Source: Alphaproteobacteria bacterium (GTDB lineage Bacteria; Pseudomonadota; Alphaproteobacteria; Micavibrionales; UBA2020). From it: a stretch of DNA of 26,655 nt. Made by a program: the position numbers and the translations under genes. The notes beneath the pieces are model-generated. The model worked only from the letters and a program-made list of their open reading frames with translations, made no database searches and was not told the DNA's origin. Location: assembly GCA_038210695.1 (NCBI GenBank), contig JBBQWK010000001.1, positions 1 through 26,655 of the forward strand, read 5' to 3'. Position 1 is the first letter of the stretch, and each line of letters begins with the position of its first letter. Positions 6,202-10,741 of this stretch are shown here, piece after piece.

Positions 6202-6678
6202 TTAATTCTTCAACGACGGCGCGTTTATGCTCGCTGCAGGCTTCTGCTGCTCGACTGCTGCAGGTGCCGTTGCCTTGCCAAAAGATTTGGTGAGGGCGCG
6301 GAGGCCGGCGAGTTTTGATTTGAGGCTGGTGAATTCGGGGCCGCCGAGCAGGTCTTTGCGGTAGCGGGCGAGCAGCGTGCCATTCTCGATATCCCGCGTG
6401 ATGGCCTTTTTAGCTTCAATGTCGCGGCGCGGGGTTTTGGTGGACCAGACGCAGGAGGCGAGCGTGCCGAAGCCGAGGATGCCAACCACCCAGATGGGCG
6501 TTGCGGGGAAAGTTGCCGCCAGCATCATGCCGCCAATGAAAGTGGCGAACAGGGCGACCTTGCCGGTTTCCTCCTTGCTCATCCATTTGCCGTTACGGGC
6601 GGCCTTGCGGTATTCGGCTGCATACAGCGCCTGAATGGCGATTCGGGTTTCATCGACGGGGGAAAGCGGCTCGGCCAT
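6202..6678 (-). CDS. Hypothetical membrane protein (2 TM) with Ala/Pro/Lys-rich tail
   Basis: 158-aa ORF with an AAGGA RBS upstream and a hydrophobic hairpin at about aa 41-78. No recognisable family motif. Confidence 0.7.
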   Translation of the reverse strand: MAEPLSPVDETRIAIQALYAAEYRKAARNGKWMSKEETGKVALFATFIGGMMLAATFPATPIWVVGILGFGTLASCVWSTKTPRRDIEAKKAITRDIENGTLLARYRKDLLGGPEFTSLKSKLAGLRALTKSFGKATAPAAVEQQKPAASINAPSLKN

Positions 6679-6759
6679 GGTGCAGGGGTCCTTCTGGAGA
6701 AACAGGAAGGCATATTCCCTAACTATGAAGCAGCTGTCAACCCAAGTTTCGGAAAATAA

Positions 6760-8379
6760 TCAGCTCAACAGCAGCCGCAGCTTGGATTGCAGCTCCTTGC
6801 CGTCGAAGGGTTTGCAGATGTAATCATCCATCCCTGATTCGAGGCATTTTTCACGGTCGCCATTCAGCGCGTGGGCGGTCATGCCGATGATGGGCATGCG
6901 CGGGCGGTTGCCGTTTTTCTCGCGCTCCCGAATCGCACTGGTCGTTTCCCAGCCGTTCATTTTCGGCATCTGCACATCCATGAGAATGGCGTCGTATTTT
7001 TCCTTCTCGACCTGCGAGAGCGCGGCCTGTCCGTTGGGGGCGACATCATAGCTGTAGCCGAAATTCTCTAAAAATGTGCCGGCGACGAGGACGTTGGGGT
7101 AGTTGTCTTCCACCAGCAAAATTCTTCCAAGCGCGGTGTCGCCGGGGCCTTTGAAAACTTCTGTCGTATGTTGAAGCATATCCGGCGCACGGCCGTGCTT
7201 CAGATCCACCCGGACGGTAAAGGTGGAGCCTTTGTCTTGTGTGCTTTCAACGAGAATATCCCCGTCCATCAACTCGACCAGCTTTTTCGAAATCGAGAGG
7301 CCCAAGCCGCTGCCGCCGTATTTCCGCGTAATGGAATTATCCGCCTGCACAAATTTGTGGAAGATAGATTCCATTTGTCCCGGCGCAATGCCAATGCCCG
7401 TATCGGCTACTGCGATGGAAACACGGCTCGTGCCGTTTGCTGTAGGTACTGCATGGGCAATAATGCGGATCAGCCCGCGGTCGGTGAATTTGACGGCGTT
7501 GCCGCCAAGGTTGGCGATTACCTGTTTCAGGCGCGTCGGGTCGCCCGAATAAATCGCGCCTTGCGGCAAATGATCCTCGACCACGACTTCAAGGTCTTTC
7601 ATGCGCGCCTGAACGGAAACGATGCTGGCGACGTCCTGAATCAGCTGACTGAGGTTGAAGGGGATATTTTCCAGCTCCACCGAGCTTGCCTCGATCTTCG
7701 AAATATCCAGCAGGTCGTTGATCAGCGTCAGCATTGACTCTGCGCTTGTCTGCAGCGTTTCAATGTATTGCAGCTGCTTCGGGGTCAGCGGCCGGCTGGC
7801 GCTTAAAATTTGCGACAGGCCGAAAATAGCGTTCATCGGCGTGCGGATTTCATGGCTCATATTGGCAAGGAATTCCGATTTCGCGCGGTTGGCGGCTTGG
7901 GCCTTGTCGCGTTCGATGGTCAGCTCCTGCGCCTGCCGCTCGCTTTTTTTCAAATAGTCGCGCACCTGATACTGGCGGATGCGGTCGCGTAAGACCGCGC
8001 GGATGGCGCTGAGCAGTTCCAGCACCTGCACCGGCCGGCGGATCAGCGTCATATGCTGCAGCAAGTCCATCTTGCGTCGCATTTCCTGCGTCGGCTCCCG
8101 CGCGGGGGTGAGCAGAATAAGCGGGAAATCGGACCAGGCCGGCTGTTGGTCGATAAGCTGGCCAAGGTGGTTTTCCCGGTCGGAAAAAAGCGCCTCCTCG
8201 GTGATCAATGCGGCACCGGCGCCCTTGGTGATTTCGTAACAGACTTCGGCCATGGAATGGCAGATGTCGCAGTCAACGCCCGCGTCGCGCAGGATGCCGG
8301 CCGTGATCTGGGCATCCTTTGCGGTCGGCGCGAGAACCAGAAAGCGAAGGTCGTTTCCCTGGGCGGTTTCCACCGTCAT
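6760..8379 (-). CDS. Cytoplasmic hybrid histidine kinase (pseudo-receiver, HisKA, HATPase_c, REC), KaiC-associated
   Basis: Degenerate N-terminal receiver ('FLVLAPTAKDA', 'AALITEEAL', 'LIRRP'). H-box 'FLANMSHEIRTPMN', N-box 'RLKQVIANLGGNAVKFT', 'DTGIGI', 'GGSGLGL'. Intact C-terminal REC 'ILLVEDN..ILMDVQMP..CKP'. No TM segments. Confidence 0.93.
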   Translation of the reverse strand: MTVETAQGNDLRFLVLAPTAKDAQITAGILRDAGVDCDICHSMAEVCYEITKGAGAALITEEALFSDRENHLGQLIDQQPAWSDFPLILLTPAREPTQEMRRKMDLLQHMTLIRRPVQVLELLSAIRAVLRDRIRQYQVRDYLKKSERQAQELTIERDKAQAANRAKSEFLANMSHEIRTPMNAIFGLSQILSASRPLTPKQLQYIETLQTSAESMLTLINDLLDISKIEASSVELENIPFNLSQLIQDVASIVSVQARMKDLEVVVEDHLPQGAIYSGDPTRLKQVIANLGGNAVKFTDRGLIRIIAHAVPTANGTSRVSIAVADTGIGIAPGQMESIFHKFVQADNSITRKYGGSGLGLSISKKLVELMDGDILVESTQDKGSTFTVRVDLKHGRAPDMLQHTTEVFKGPGDTALGRILLVEDNYPNVLVAGTFLENFGYSYDVAPNGQAALSQVEKEKYDAILMDVQMPKMNGWETTSAIREREKNGNRPRMPIIGMTAHALNGDREKCLESGMDDYICKPFDGKELQSKLRLLLS

Positions 8380-8398: not shown

Positions 8399-9889
8399 TC
8401 ATTTATTCGCCATGACAGGCATGCCTGTCAGGACACCCTGGAACTGCGACAACGGCTCGCCCACCGTAATGCCTTTGCTGCCGATTTTGAATTCGCGGAT
8501 GCTTCTTTCATGCGGCCCGCTGCGTTTCTTGAGTATAGACACCGCCTGCCGGACTTCGCCCTGCAGCTCGAAATAACGGAACAGCACGACGGAGTCGGAA
8601 AGATAGCTGGTGTCGAGCGGTGTCTGCATCGACTGGCCGAGCAGCCCGTGCTGCGCCACCACCAAGAAAGTCACAACGCCATGATGCCCGAGGTAGGTGA
8701 GCAACTCGTGCATCTGCGACATGAGGAAGCGTTCCTCCGGCATGGCGTTGAGATAGCCGTTGAGACTGTCGATGACCACAACCTTGGCATCGGGCGCGCC
8801 GCTCTTGCCGCCGACGACCTCCCGTACCCTGTGCGCAAATTCTCCCGGCGACATTTCAGTCGGATCGACTGGCTGTAGGTGGATAAAGCCCTCGTTGATA
8901 TATTTTTCCAGTTCCATGCCGATACCCGCCGCACGGTGCAGCATGGTGGCAAGGCTTTCATCAAAGGTGAAGATGACGGCGTGTTGCCCCTGCTTTGCCG
9001 CCTCGACGGCGTATTGCATGGCGAGTGTCGACTTGCCGACGCCCGCCGGTCCCAGTAGAAGCACACTTGTGCCTTCCTCCGGCCCGCCGCCCATCAGGCG
9101 ATCAAACGGCGCAACGCCGCTTTTTAGTTGCTTTTTCACGCCTGGCACCGGTTTATCCGACGTTACGATGCGGGGGAAAATGAACACGCCGCCGGTCTGG
9201 ATGGCGAAATCATGGTAGCCGCCATGGTATTTCTGGCCACGGAATTTCTTGATGCGAATACGTCGCTTCTCCGCACCATATTCGGGGGAAAGCTGTTCAA
9301 GGTCGATCACGCCGTGCGCGATGCTTTCCAGCTGGAAATTTTCGAGCTCAGTAGTTGTCTTGTCGTCAAGAAACAGCACGGTGCAGGCGCGCGTGGTGAA
9401 GAACTTTTTCAATGCCAGAATTTGGCGGCGGAAGCGCAGCGGGCTTTGCGCCAGTAATTTCAGTTCCGACAACGAATCGAGCACGACGCGCGAGGGCTTC
9501 AATTTTTCAACTTCGGCGATAATTGCTTCGGTCGTATTACCCAGCTCGACTTCAGACGGCTGGTACATGGTGTACTGGTTTTCGGCCTGCAGCGCGTCTT
9601 CTGTCGTCAGCAGTTCGAGAATGTTGATGCCGTCCAGTGACCAGCCATGTGATTCCGCCGCCGACTGAAGCTCCGATGCGCTTTCGGACAGTGTCAGGTA
9701 GAGGACGACTTCGTTATTTTTAAGGCCTTCCATCAGGAATTGCATGGCGACGGTAGTTTTGCCAGCCCCCGGCGATCCCTGAACAAGGTACACGCGCTCC
9801 CGCGCGAATCCGCCTCCCAGAATCTGGTCGAGCTCTGCATTGCCAGTCTTTATCCTGGCGCTGGTTTGGTGGCTTGCCGGTTTTTCCAA
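8399..9889 (-). CDS. kaiC: Double-domain KaiC-like (RecA/RAD55 family) P-loop ATPase
   Basis: Two RecA-type domains: 'TGNAELDQILGGG' with Walker A 'GSPGAGKT', and 'SGVAPFDRLMGGG' with Walker A 'GPAGVGKS'. Walker B 'VVLDS'/'VVIDS', arginine-finger motifs 'KFRG'/'KKRSG'. TTG start with AAAGGA RBS. The symbol denotes family membership, not clock function. Confidence 0.92.
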   Translation of the reverse strand: MEKPASHQTSARIKTGNAELDQILGGGFARERVYLVQGSPGAGKTTVAMQFLMEGLKNNEVVLYLTLSESASELQSAAESHGWSLDGINILELLTTEDALQAENQYTMYQPSEVELGNTTEAIIAEVEKLKPSRVVLDSLSELKLLAQSPLRFRRQILALKKFFTTRACTVLFLDDKTTTELENFQLESIAHGVIDLEQLSPEYGAEKRRIRIKKFRGQKYHGGYHDFAIQTGGVFIFPRIVTSDKPVPGVKKQLKSGVAPFDRLMGGGPEEGTSVLLLGPAGVGKSTLAMQYAVEAAKQGQHAVIFTFDESLATMLHRAAGIGMELEKYINEGFIHLQPVDPTEMSPGEFAHRVREVVGGKSGAPDAKVVVIDSLNGYLNAMPEERFLMSQMHELLTYLGHHGVVTFLVVAQHGLLGQSMQTPLDTSYLSDSVVLFRYFELQGEVRQAVSILKKRSGPHERSIREFKIGSKGITVGEPLSQFQGVLTGMPVMANK

Positions 9890-9942
9890 GGATCAAATTC
9901 CTTTGCTCATAAGGGTTGTTACAAATGGCCCATAATTTCGCA

Positions 9943-9968
9943 AACGGGGTTTTTGTGAGTCCGGTTCC
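9943..9968 (-). promoter_or_regulatory. Sigma-EcfG (sigma-T/RpoE2) general stress response promoter for the kaiC-like operon
   Basis: The minus strand reads GGAAC-cggactcacaaaaaccc-CGTT (N17), an exact match to the alphaproteobacterial EcfG consensus GGAAC-N16/17-CGTT. It is correctly oriented, about 55 nt upstream of the start codon. Confidence 0.72.
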
Positions 9969-9997
9969 GTACCAAATAGCAGGTGATTGAAATCATT

Positions 9998-10027
9998 AAA
10001 AAACCGCGCCAACAAATGTTGCGCGGT
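9998..10027 (-). terminator. Rho-independent terminator of tRNA-Gly
   Basis: Hairpin ACCGCGC(C)AACA-AA-TGTTGCGCGGT followed on the minus strand by T6. Confidence 0.7.
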
Positions 10028-10048
10028 CGGGAAAAAATCGGAAGAAAT

Positions 10049-10123
<75 letters not shown>

Positions 10124-10170
10124 GTACATAAAACAGACCAAAGAATCTGGCTTCATGCGAGTGCTATAGG

Positions 10171-10198
10171 GATATGGCATTTGAACCCCTGTTGTCAA
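10171..10198 (-). promoter_or_regulatory. Putative sigma70 promoter for tRNA-Gly
   Basis: TTGACA on the minus strand (10198-10193) followed 16 nt later by CATATC, a weak alphaproteobacterial-type -10. Confidence 0.4.
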
Positions 10199-10269
10199 GA
10201 AAGGAATAGTCCTTCCAACCCGTTGATATATTTTAGCTTTTACGGCCTTATTTCAAAAACTTTGCTTGA

Positions 10270-10299
10270 TTGACATAATTTATGCGGCGGGACTAGGAT
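10270..10299 (+). promoter_or_regulatory. Putative sigma70 promoter for the 10340 ORF
   Basis: TTGACA-N18-TAGGAT, 40 nt upstream of ATG 10340. Confidence 0.5.
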
Positions 10300-10339
10300 G
10301 GCGGCAGTGTTTTCGGCCTTTAAAGATGCGGTTTAAATC

Positions 10340-10741
10340 ATGCCTGCACAATTTATCCAGTACCTGACCTTCCGCACGGCGGCCTATGTCACCGGCAATG
10401 CGCCGGGGCAGGAAGTTGCTACCTATTGGGCCTATGAAACTGCGGTCGAGAGAAAATCGGGCCGTCTGGTGCAGACCGACATTCACCAGAGCAGCCGCAC
10501 CACCGCGCCCTTCACCGATGACATGCCGGAGAAAGACGCGCTTGAGCAGCTGGCAGAGATTGATGCGAAAGCACGCGCCAAATTCCCGCTGCTGCAGGAA
10601 CCCGATAACCGTTTCTGTGGGACAGGCAGCGAATTCGCCAAGGCTATTCCCTACCGCGAGCATCAGGTTTATATCGCGGGCGTGCGGCAGGAAATGCTGA
10701 AGACGCAGGCAACACCGGCCAAGTTCAAGCTGAAGCCCTAA
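10340..10741 (+). CDS. Hypothetical protein
   Basis: 133-aa ORF with host-like codon usage, its own promoter and a downstream terminator. No family recognised. Confidence 0.75.
   Translation: MPAQFIQYLTFRTAAYVTGNAPGQEVATYWAYETAVERKSGRLVQTDIHQSSRTTAPFTDDMPEKDALEQLAEIDAKARAKFPLLQEPDNRFCGTGSEFAKAIPYREHQVYIAGVRQEMLKTQATPAKFKLKP

What the first reader, a model, noticed from the sequence alone, without database searches (positions are those of the whole stretch)
9943..9968. Perfect sigma-EcfG general-stress promoter in front of the kaiC-like operon
Seen: GGAAC-N17-CGTT on the coding strand, about 55 nt upstream of the kaiC TTG and just past the tRNA-Gly terminator. Known: this is the consensus of the alphaproteobacterial general stress response sigma factor (EcfG/SigT/RpoE2) controlled by PhyR-NepR. 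A rough chance estimate (9 fixed bases, 2 spacers, about 100 positions) is near 1 in 1000. Inference: the KaiC-kinase module is an output or feedback arm of the general stress response. Its kinase is HisKA-type, not the HWE/HisKA_2 type that usually feeds PhyR, so it may be a separate branch.
Basis: partly seen in the sequence, partly recalled or inferred. Interest (0 to 1): 0.75.

Follow-up and report, generated by a model that had tools for sequence, protein, structure and literature searches.

The report
Stress-sigma promoter before KaiC-kinase operon
A short promoter of the type read by the alphaproteobacterial general-stress sigma factor really sits in front of a clock-protein-like ATPase (KaiC) and its partner kinase. 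The same promoter recurs before this gene pair in distant alphaproteobacteria, yet this Micavibrio-like lineage lacks the usual PhyR-NepR switch that controls that sigma factor.

Summary
GGAAC-N17-CGTT lies at 9943-9968 on the minus strand, 53 nt before the TTG of a double-domain KaiC-like gene, with a HisKA hybrid kinase 20 nt downstream. It sits just past the tRNA-Gly terminator hairpin.

It is very unlikely to be chance. In this 2.03-Mb, 76%-complete MAG, 15 exact motifs lie in promoter-like positions, against 1.1 (maximum 6) for 150 permuted control motifs. They occur only with N16 or N17 spacers. They precede typical general-stress genes: CsbD, PRC-barrel, Gly-zipper lipoprotein, DUF3606, DUF1236, AhpD and an RpoH-like sigma.

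GGAACC and CGTT stay invariant in the two closest orthologous loci while the spacer diverges. Exact motifs also precede orthologous kaiC-kinase pairs in 3 of 16 loci sampled across the class (0.05 expected) and in 23 of 31 loci of one PhyR-containing order.

The canonical system is not here. PhyR was not found in 81 genomes of the order, and NepR and HisKA_2 kinases were not found in 5 near-complete genomes of the genus. The two EcfG-like sigmas form their own clade and have no adjacent anti-sigma.

Verdict: a real EcfG-type stress promoter in a non-canonical regulatory setting. This scan found the KaiC-EcfG link before on other DNA (e1-2501808).

The parts
9943..9968 (-). ECF (EcfG-type) promoter: -35 GGAAC(C) at 9968-9964(3), 17-nt spacer, -10 (C)CGTT at 9946-9943
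   Evidence: Exact match. It fits the extended in-genome consensus c-GGAAC-c ... c-CGTT built from 15 sites. N17 is the preferred spacer (11 of 15 sites). GGAACC and CGTT are invariant in the G005 and G009 orthologous loci while the spacer diverges.
9934..9938 (-). Predicted transcription start, giving a 5' UTR of about 46-50 nt
   Evidence: Inference only, from the usual 5-9 nt distance between an ECF -10 element and the start. No RNA run was available.
9899..9903 (-). Shine-Dalgarno AAGGA, 9 nt before the TTG start
   Evidence: Read directly from the sequence. The start is supported by the N-terminal alignment with orthologs.
8399..9889 (-). KaiC-like double-domain ATPase (496 aa), first gene of the operon
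   Evidence: Pfam PF06745 KaiC, E 1e-73, two stretches. NCBIfam PRK09302 matches at 250 bits, below the equivalog cut-off of 408.
6760..8379 (-). Hybrid HisKA histidine kinase with C-terminal receiver (539 aa), 20 nt after kaiC; second gene of the operon
   Evidence: Pfam HisKA, HATPase_c and Response_reg. A homolog starts directly after kaiC in 15 of 16 loci sampled across the class.
9996..10028 (-). Intrinsic terminator of the upstream tRNA gene (hairpin 10002-10028 plus U6 at 9996-10001)
   Evidence: Fold -15.8 kcal/mol, z -2.43. The simple terminator scan missed it because of a bulge in the stem.
10049..10123 (-). tRNA-Gly (GCC), upstream on the same strand
   Evidence: ARAGORN. Rfam tRNA, 70 bits.

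Best explanation
9943-9968 is a functional promoter for an alternative ECF sigma factor of the EcfG type. It starts transcription of the kaiC-like/hybrid-kinase operon a few bases downstream of CGTT.

The sigma that reads it is most likely one or both of the genome's two EcfG-like sigmas (contig C80:1504-2073 and C77:6297-6845). Their -35-recognition helix (VGTVRSRLSRAR) closely matches that of PhyR-linked EcfGs.

The operon therefore belongs to a general-stress-type regulon, together with CsbD, PRC-barrel, Gly-zipper, DUF3606, DUF1236, AhpD and RpoH-like genes. The KaiC-kinase signalling module would be made, or boosted, when that sigma is active.

Shown: the motif, its genome-wide enrichment and spacer rule, the stress-type target set, and conservation before orthologous kaiC-kinase operons inside and far outside this lineage.

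Inferred: which sigma binds, the start site, and stress inducibility.

In this Micavibrio-like order the sigma is not controlled by PhyR-NepR. Its genes lack an adjacent anti-sigma and carry conserved GT(C/T)ACA direct repeats upstream. One copy sits between a hybrid kinase and a divergent OmpR-type regulator. Control at the level of sigma-gene transcription by a two-component system is therefore the likeliest alternative (inference).
For: - Exact motif at the right place and strand.
- 15 promoter-like exact sites against 1.09 +/- 1.2 (max 6) for 150 permuted control motifs.
- Promoter-like sites occur only with N16 (4) and N17 (11), and none with N14, N15 or N18.
- The first base of CGTT is tolerant (NGTT), as in the published S. 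melonis EcfG motif GGAAC-N17-20-GTT.
- Targets are typical general-stress genes.
- No sigma-70-like promoter was found on this strand between the tRNA and kaiC, and a terminator isolates the unit.
- GGAACC and CGTT are the invariant blocks in an alignment with the G005 (86% aa) and G009 (82% aa) loci.
- Exact motif before orthologous kaiC-kinase pairs in 3 of 16 loci sampled across the class. Permuted controls gave a mean of 0.053 and a maximum of 1 over 359 controls, and the opposite strand gave 0. Those three genomes have PhyR.
- 23 of 31 loci in one order carry the exact motif with very different spacers.
- The sigmas' best solved-structure match is 5uxx (E 1e-24), which I recall as the Bartonella EcfG-NepR complex (from memory). 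They also hit PF22029 above its cut-off.
- The region 4.2 helix is conserved with PhyR-adjacent EcfGs but not with the genome's other ECF sigma.
Against: - There are no transcript data: no RNA run holds this DNA.
- The genome is a 76%-complete MAG, and gene calls came from my own simple caller.
- Within the genus only 3 of 9 loci (own, G005, G009) have the exact motif.
- Four loci (G002, G007, G001, G011) have GGAAC-N16-TGTT. There the invariant block is TTGTTCCC, which G004 also keeps although it lacks GGAAC, so that group is ambiguous.
- Orthologs at 61-66% identity in other Micavibrio-like or low-GC genomes have no motif.
- The EcfG-like sigmas lie outside the PhyR-linked EcfG clade and show no copy of the motif upstream of their own genes.
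- GGAAC/CGTT-like promoters are also used by other ECF groups, such as mycobacterial SigE and SigH (from memory). The motif alone does not name the sigma.
Confidence: 0.8

Rival explanations
1. Chance match: the nine bases are there but no sigma factor uses them, and kaiC is transcribed from an unrecognised promoter.
For: The motif is short. 26% of window shuffles give at least one hit, and about 1 promoter-like hit per genome is expected by chance. No expression data exist.
Against: The observed-to-expected ratio is 15 to 1 in promoter-like positions. The site matches the extended consensus and the preferred N17 spacer. The two blocks are invariant in diverged orthologous upstream regions. 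The same motif recurs before orthologous operons in unrelated alphaproteobacteria.
Confidence: 0.06
2. The promoter is real but is read by a different ECF sigma of this genome (for example the one at C153:4077-4649 with a downstream putative anti-sigma, or the one on C3), not by the EcfG-like pair.
For: At least four ECF-type sigma genes exist. The EcfG-like pair is not visibly autoregulated by the motif. The C153 sigma lies 1.2 kb downstream of a motif-driven CsbD gene. Several ECF groups share GGAAC/CGTT-like elements (from memory).
Against: The C153 sigma differs from EcfGs in the -35 recognition helix, whereas the EcfG-like pair matches them. The target set is the classical EcfG-type one. 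The same promoter-operon pair occurs in PhyR/EcfG-containing genomes.
Confidence: 0.1
3. The canonical PhyR-NepR-EcfG system is present after all, hidden in the missing quarter of the MAG or too divergent to detect. The first reader's full model would then hold.
For: The MAG is 75.6% complete. NepR is tiny and hard to detect. The Pfam model was validated here on a single control genome.
Against: PhyR was not found in 81 genomes of the order, 75 of them of high quality. At a relaxed threshold, two 99%-complete genomes give only receiver-only or sigma-only matches. The best-scoring candidates there and in this MAG turned out to be an OmpR-type regulator and a CheY-like protein. No HisKA_2 kinase was found in 5 genomes. 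No conserved small ORF flanks the sigma genes. The PhyR model finds PhyR in 12 other alphaproteobacterial genomes.
Confidence: 0.04

Closest known systems
EcfG (ECF15; SigT, RpoE2)-dependent general-stress promoters of Alphaproteobacteria, e.g. Sphingomonas melonis Fr1 (PMC6599016)
   Same: GGAAC -35 and (C)GTT -10 with a 16-17 nt spacer, located within about 100 nt of the coding sequence. The regulon consists of small secreted, envelope and stress proteins (PRC-barrel, CsbD-type and others).
   Different: PhyR, NepR and HisKA_2 kinases were not found in the lineage. The sigma forms a separate clade from PhyR-adjacent EcfGs, has no adjacent anti-sigma and shows no autoregulatory copy of the motif.
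KaiB-less KaiC-like / histidine kinase / single-domain response regulator modules of environmental Pseudomonas (bioRxiv 10.1101/2022.01.26.477890)
   Same: A double-domain KaiC homolog lies in one predicted operon with a histidine kinase. Those modules are expressed in early stationary phase and contribute to osmotic and oxidative stress resistance, which fits control by a stress sigma.
   Different: The host belongs to a different class. No ECF or EcfG promoter is described there.
Methylorubrum extorquens AM1 kaiC2-kaiR2 and kaiC1 clusters (reviewed in PMC8069551)
   Same: Alphaproteobacterial non-circadian KaiC proteins tied to UV and heat resistance and to leaf colonisation.
   Different: That review treats PhyR and KaiC in separate sections, and the passages I read name no PhyR/EcfG control of kaiC. 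No paper in the searchable library holds both 'KaiC' and 'EcfG'.
Mycobacterial SigE and SigH (ECF14, ECF12) promoters
   Same: Similar GGAAC...(C)GTT architecture (from memory). SigH and SigE are the next-best solved-structure matches of the sigma.
   Different: Different phylum, anti-sigma partners (RshA, RseA) and regulon content. This is a reminder that the motif alone does not identify the sigma group.

Membership tests
EcfG-type (ECF15) promoter | -35 GGAAC and -10 CGTT (core GTT) separated by 16-17 nt | tested here: met
   Exact GGAAC-N17-CGTT at 9943-9968 on the minus strand. Published motif.
EcfG-type (ECF15) promoter | Non-coding position, correctly oriented, within about 100 nt of the start codon | tested here: met
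   53 nt before the TTG, after a terminator. The other in-genome sites lie 11-78 nt from their starts.
EcfG-type (ECF15) promoter | Belongs to a genome-wide set of like promoters in front of general-stress genes | tested here: met
   15 sites against 1.1 expected. Targets include CsbD, PRC, Gly-zipper, DUF3606, DUF1236, AhpD, an RpoH-like sigma and a single receiver.
EcfG-type (ECF15) promoter | Transcription start mapped downstream of the -10 element and dependent on the sigma | not testable with these tools
   No RNA-type run holds the stretch.
PhyR-NepR-EcfG general stress response system | EcfG sigma factor orthologous to the PhyR-linked EcfGs | tested here: inconclusive
   Two EcfG-like sigmas were found. 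In the tree they form their own clade with one other genome's sigma (support 100/97), outside the clade (93/95) that holds all 7 PhyR-adjacent EcfGs.
PhyR-NepR-EcfG general stress response system | PhyR (sigma-like domain plus receiver) anti-anti-sigma | tested here: not met
   NF006623 gave no two-domain match in the own genome, in 5 genomes of the genus or in 81 genomes of the order. The model finds PhyR in other alphaproteobacteria.
PhyR-NepR-EcfG general stress response system | NepR anti-sigma, usually encoded just upstream of ecfG | tested here: not met
   PF18557 gave no match in the own genome or in 5 genomes of the genus. No conserved small ORF lies next to the sigma genes. Sensitivity for so small a protein is limited.
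PhyR-NepR-EcfG general stress response system | HWE/HisKA_2 kinases that feed PhyR | tested here: not met
   HisKA_2 (PF07568) gave no match in 5 near-complete genomes of the genus. HWE_HK was not searched.
KaiC-like ATPase / histidine kinase module | Double KaiC (RecA-like) domain protein | tested here: met
   PF06745 at 248 bits, two stretches (13-239 and a second one).
KaiC-like ATPase / histidine kinase module | Histidine kinase gene directly downstream in the same orientation, conserved across taxa | tested here: met
   The gap here is 20 nt. A homologous kinase starts right after kaiC in 15 of 16 loci sampled across the class.
Cyanobacterial KaiABC oscillator | KaiC equivalog score; KaiA and KaiB partners | tested here: not met
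   TIGR02655 scores 151 bits against a cut-off of 546, and PRK09302 scores 250 against 408. No kaiB- or kaiA-like ORF lies next to the gene among those scanned. A genome-wide KaiB search was not done.

The most novel reading that the evidence does not exclude
In the Micavibrio-like order an EcfG-type general-stress regulon has survived complete loss, or never had acquisition, of the PhyR-NepR-HisKA_2 partner switch. The orphan EcfG-like sigma would be controlled through transcription of its own gene by an OmpR-type two-component system acting on the conserved GT(C/T)ACA direct repeats. The sigma-dependent KaiC/pseudo-receiver-kinase phosphorelay (KaiC, two hybrid kinases, Hpt and a stand-alone receiver in this window, with no DNA-binding output) would feed back on that regulator. 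The KaiC ATPase would thus supply the internal-state or time input that PhyR kinases supply elsewhere.
Probability: 0.2. Interest if true: 0.8.

Novelty: new variant of a known kind. Interest (0 to 1): 0.6.

Why it matters
The function of KaiC homologs outside cyanobacteria is an open question. A conserved stress-sigma promoter in front of the KaiC-kinase pair, seen here, in 3 of 16 loci sampled across the class and in 23 of 31 loci of one order, gives a concrete and cheap test. One would compare kaiC expression and phenotype in ecfG or phyR mutants of cultured alphaproteobacteria. It places these modules inside the general stress response.

No paper in the searchable library connects KaiC with EcfG.

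The lineage also shows that an EcfG-type regulon can run without PhyR, NepR and HisKA_2 kinases. That bears on how the alphaproteobacterial partner switch evolved and on how predatory Micavibrio-like bacteria sense stress.

Tried and rejected
- RNA evidence: no RNA holder was listed for window 8399-10130. The only holders are DNA-type sediment and soil metagenome contigs.
- Rfam on 9700-10400: only the tRNA reached threshold, and there is no cis-regulatory RNA in the leader.
- Sigma-70 scan: no hit on the minus strand upstream of kaiC.
- Literature:
  - 'KaiC' plus 'EcfG' gave 0 papers.
  - Wider term sets gave no paper linking the two.
  - 'Micavibrio' plus 'PhyR' gave one irrelevant paper.
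  - '5UXX' gave nothing useful, so the identity of that PDB entry rests on memory.
  - The Annual Review on the general stress response is not held.
  - Supplements of the S. melonis and M. extorquens regulon papers contain no KaiC or circadian entry.
- PhyR-like candidates: the best receiver matches (G001:575527-575889 and own C18:10840-11190) are an OmpR-type regulator and a CheY-like protein.
- A tiny anti-sigma next to the sigma (lead from e1-2996565): no conserved small ORF was found up- or downstream of 11 sigma loci.
- Best-hit synteny test for EcfG orthology was inconclusive. The PhyR-adjacent sigma is the best hit in only 2 of 8 PhyR-positive genomes, so I built a tree instead.

Full report
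**What is in the sequence**

On the minus strand the window reads GGAAC (9968-9964), 17 nt, then CGTT (9946-9943). This is the coding strand of a 496-aa ORF (8399-9889) that starts with TTG and is preceded by AAGGA nine bases upstream. The ORF is a double-domain KaiC-family ATPase: Pfam PF06745, E 1e-73, two stretches. It lies below the equivalog cut-offs for true circadian KaiC.

Twenty bases downstream lies a 539-aa hybrid kinase with HisKA, HATPase_c and a receiver domain.

Upstream on the same strand is tRNA-Gly(GCC) at 10049-10123. It is followed by a hairpin plus U6 run at 9996-10028 (-15.8 kcal/mol, z -2.4). The motif lies 28 nt past that terminator and 53 nt before the start codon. No sigma-70-like promoter was found on this strand in between, and no Rfam element lies in the leader.

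**Is it more than chance?**

The window alone does not decide this: 26 of 100 shuffles give at least one match. I therefore used the whole assembly, a MAG of 2.03 Mb in 377 contigs, 75.6% complete.

There are 49 exact GGAAC-N16/17-CGTT matches against about 33 expected from composition. A simple codon-usage gene caller of my own gave 2104 genes and 89% coding. With it, 16 matches are non-coding and 15 lie within 250 nt upstream of a same-strand gene. For 150 control motifs made by permuting the two blocks, the same count averaged 1.09 (sd 1.2, maximum 6).

The spacer rule is sharp. Promoter-like sites number 4 at N16 and 11 at N17, and none at N14, N15 or N18. Single-base variants show that only the first base of CGTT is tolerant: GGTT 6, TGTT 6 and AGTT 3 promoter-like sites. 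This matches the published S. melonis EcfG motif GGAAC-N17-20-GTT.

The 15 sites share an extended consensus c-GGAAC-c ... c-CGTT, which the kaiC site fits.

**What the regulon contains**

The genes behind the exact and NGTT sites (30 in all) include the following:
- CsbD
- a PRC-barrel protein
- a Gly-zipper lipoprotein
- a secreted EF-hand protein
- DUF3606 and DUF1236 proteins
- an AhpD/CMD protein
- a PLD-type enzyme
- an SLT_2 transglycosylase
- an AI-2E transporter
- a single-domain receiver
- an RpoH-like sigma factor

This is the classical content of alphaproteobacterial general-stress regulons (established knowledge; partly visible in Table 1 of PMC6599016).

**Conservation before kaiC**

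Record titles of related loci place the lineage among Micavibrio-like alphaproteobacteria.

In the genus, 9 of 14 sampled genomes have the ortholog. The two closest loci (G005, 86% aa identity; G009, 82%) carry exact GGAAC-N17-CGTT at similar distances. In the three-way alignment GGAACC and CGTT are invariant blocks while the spacer and flanks diverge.

Four further loci (G002, G007, G001, G011) carry GGAAC-N16-TGTT, an allowed variant. There, however, the invariant block is TTGTTCCC, which G004 keeps although it lacks GGAAC. That group is therefore ambiguous. Orthologs at 61-66% identity from other genera have no motif.

**Conservation far outside the lineage**

A sample of 300 genomes of the class (plus this MAG) gave 16 KaiC orthologs at 37-63% identity. 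In 15 of them a homolog of the same kinase starts right after kaiC.

Three of the 16 upstream regions carry the exact motif. Two more carry GGAAC-N16/17-GGTT, and one carries GAAAC-N17-CGTT. Over 359 permuted controls the mean was 0.053 loci and the maximum 1. The opposite strand of the same regions gave none. The three genomes with exact motifs all have PhyR.

In 31 further loci, 30 from the order of one of these genomes and one from another's, 23 carry the exact motif 57-177 nt before the aligned start, with very different spacers. The control mean was 0.14. Most of these genomes belong to one genus and are not independent.

The promoter-operon pairing is thus old and recurrent. An earlier follow-up of this scan reached the same conclusion on other DNA (e1-2501808). 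My test was run independently before I read that note.

**Which sigma, and what controls it?**

Two paralogous ECF sigmas (C80:1504-2073 and C77:6297-6845) are the EcfG-like candidates. The evidence is:
- They hit the PhyR_sigma2 model above its cut-off.
- Their best solved-structure match is 5uxx, E 1e-24. I recall this as the Bartonella EcfG-NepR complex, from memory only.
- Their region 4.2 helix matches that of PhyR-adjacent EcfGs, unlike the genome's other ECF sigma.

They are conserved at 60-97% identity in five genomes of the genus.

The canonical partners are missing:
- PhyR (NF006623) has no two-domain match in this MAG, in five genomes of the genus that are 96-99% complete, or in 81 genomes of the order, 75 of them high quality. 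The same model finds PhyR in 12 other alphaproteobacterial genomes.
- NepR and HisKA_2 kinases were not found either.

In a tree of 45 sigmas, the Micavibrio-like sigmas plus one other genome's sigma form their own clade (support 100/97). This clade lies outside the one (93/95) that holds all seven PhyR-adjacent EcfGs. One row of that tree (L075) comes from the unpublished genome G113. No conclusion depends on it.

The sigma genes have no adjacent anti-sigma or conserved small ORF and no copy of the motif upstream. Instead they carry conserved GT(C/T)ACA direct repeats. The C80 copy lies between a hybrid kinase and a divergent OmpR-type regulator. My reading is that the sigma gene is transcriptionally controlled by a two-component system. 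This is inference.

**Verdict**

The site is very probably a working ECF stress promoter for the kaiC-kinase operon (confidence about 0.8).

The assumption of a PhyR-NepR-controlled EcfG is not met in this lineage. I therefore file it as working like an EcfG promoter, but not as part of a canonical PhyR-NepR-EcfG system.

No transcript data exist for this DNA, so the start site, inducibility and any feedback role remain to be tested.

Noticed in passing
G000 contig C80:1-6981 (L002, L049); not in the window: A small general-stress island. It holds an EcfG-like sigma flanked by a hybrid kinase and a divergent OmpR-type regulator. Next come DUF883-like, CsbD-like, PRC-barrel, EF-hand and Gly-zipper genes, three of them behind GGAAC-N16/17-NGTT sites.
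   Followed up: partly
Upstream of the sigma genes: L040-L048, own C80:2074-2330 and C77:6846-7090: Conserved direct repeats GT(C/T)ACA (for example TGTCACA-N5-GTCACAAA) lie upstream of every EcfG-like sigma gene of the genus. They look like an OmpR-family binding site. No ECF motif and no anti-sigma gene are present.
   Followed up: partly
G000 contig C264:1941-3030 (L099): An RpoH-like sigma gene (regions 2, 3 and 4) sits behind GGAAC-N17-TGTT. This echoes the EcfG-to-rpoH2 cascade known in rhizobia (the rhizobial case is from memory).
   Followed up: no
L038, L031, L032, L033 (kaiC upstream in G002, G007, G001, G004): An invariant TTGTTCCC block right after the stop codon of the upstream gene forms an inverted repeat with GGAAC or GGGAA 15-17 nt before it. 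It could be a -10 variant, a protein-binding palindrome or a weak terminator.
   Followed up: no
Class-level sample: Of 20 alphaproteobacterial genomes (all at least 96% complete) that have a relative of this sigma, only 8 had a PhyR match. PhyR-less lineages with EcfG-related sigmas may be commoner among uncultured alphaproteobacteria than the literature on cultured ones suggests.
   Followed up: no
window 6679-6760, minus strand: TTGACA-N17-GAATAT lies between the kinase stop and the next ORF (6202-6678, 158 aa, no Pfam match). That ORF may therefore have its own sigma-70 promoter rather than belong to the kaiC operon.
   Followed up: no
No DNA-binding output gene is present, and no ECF motif precedes them.
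   Followed up: no
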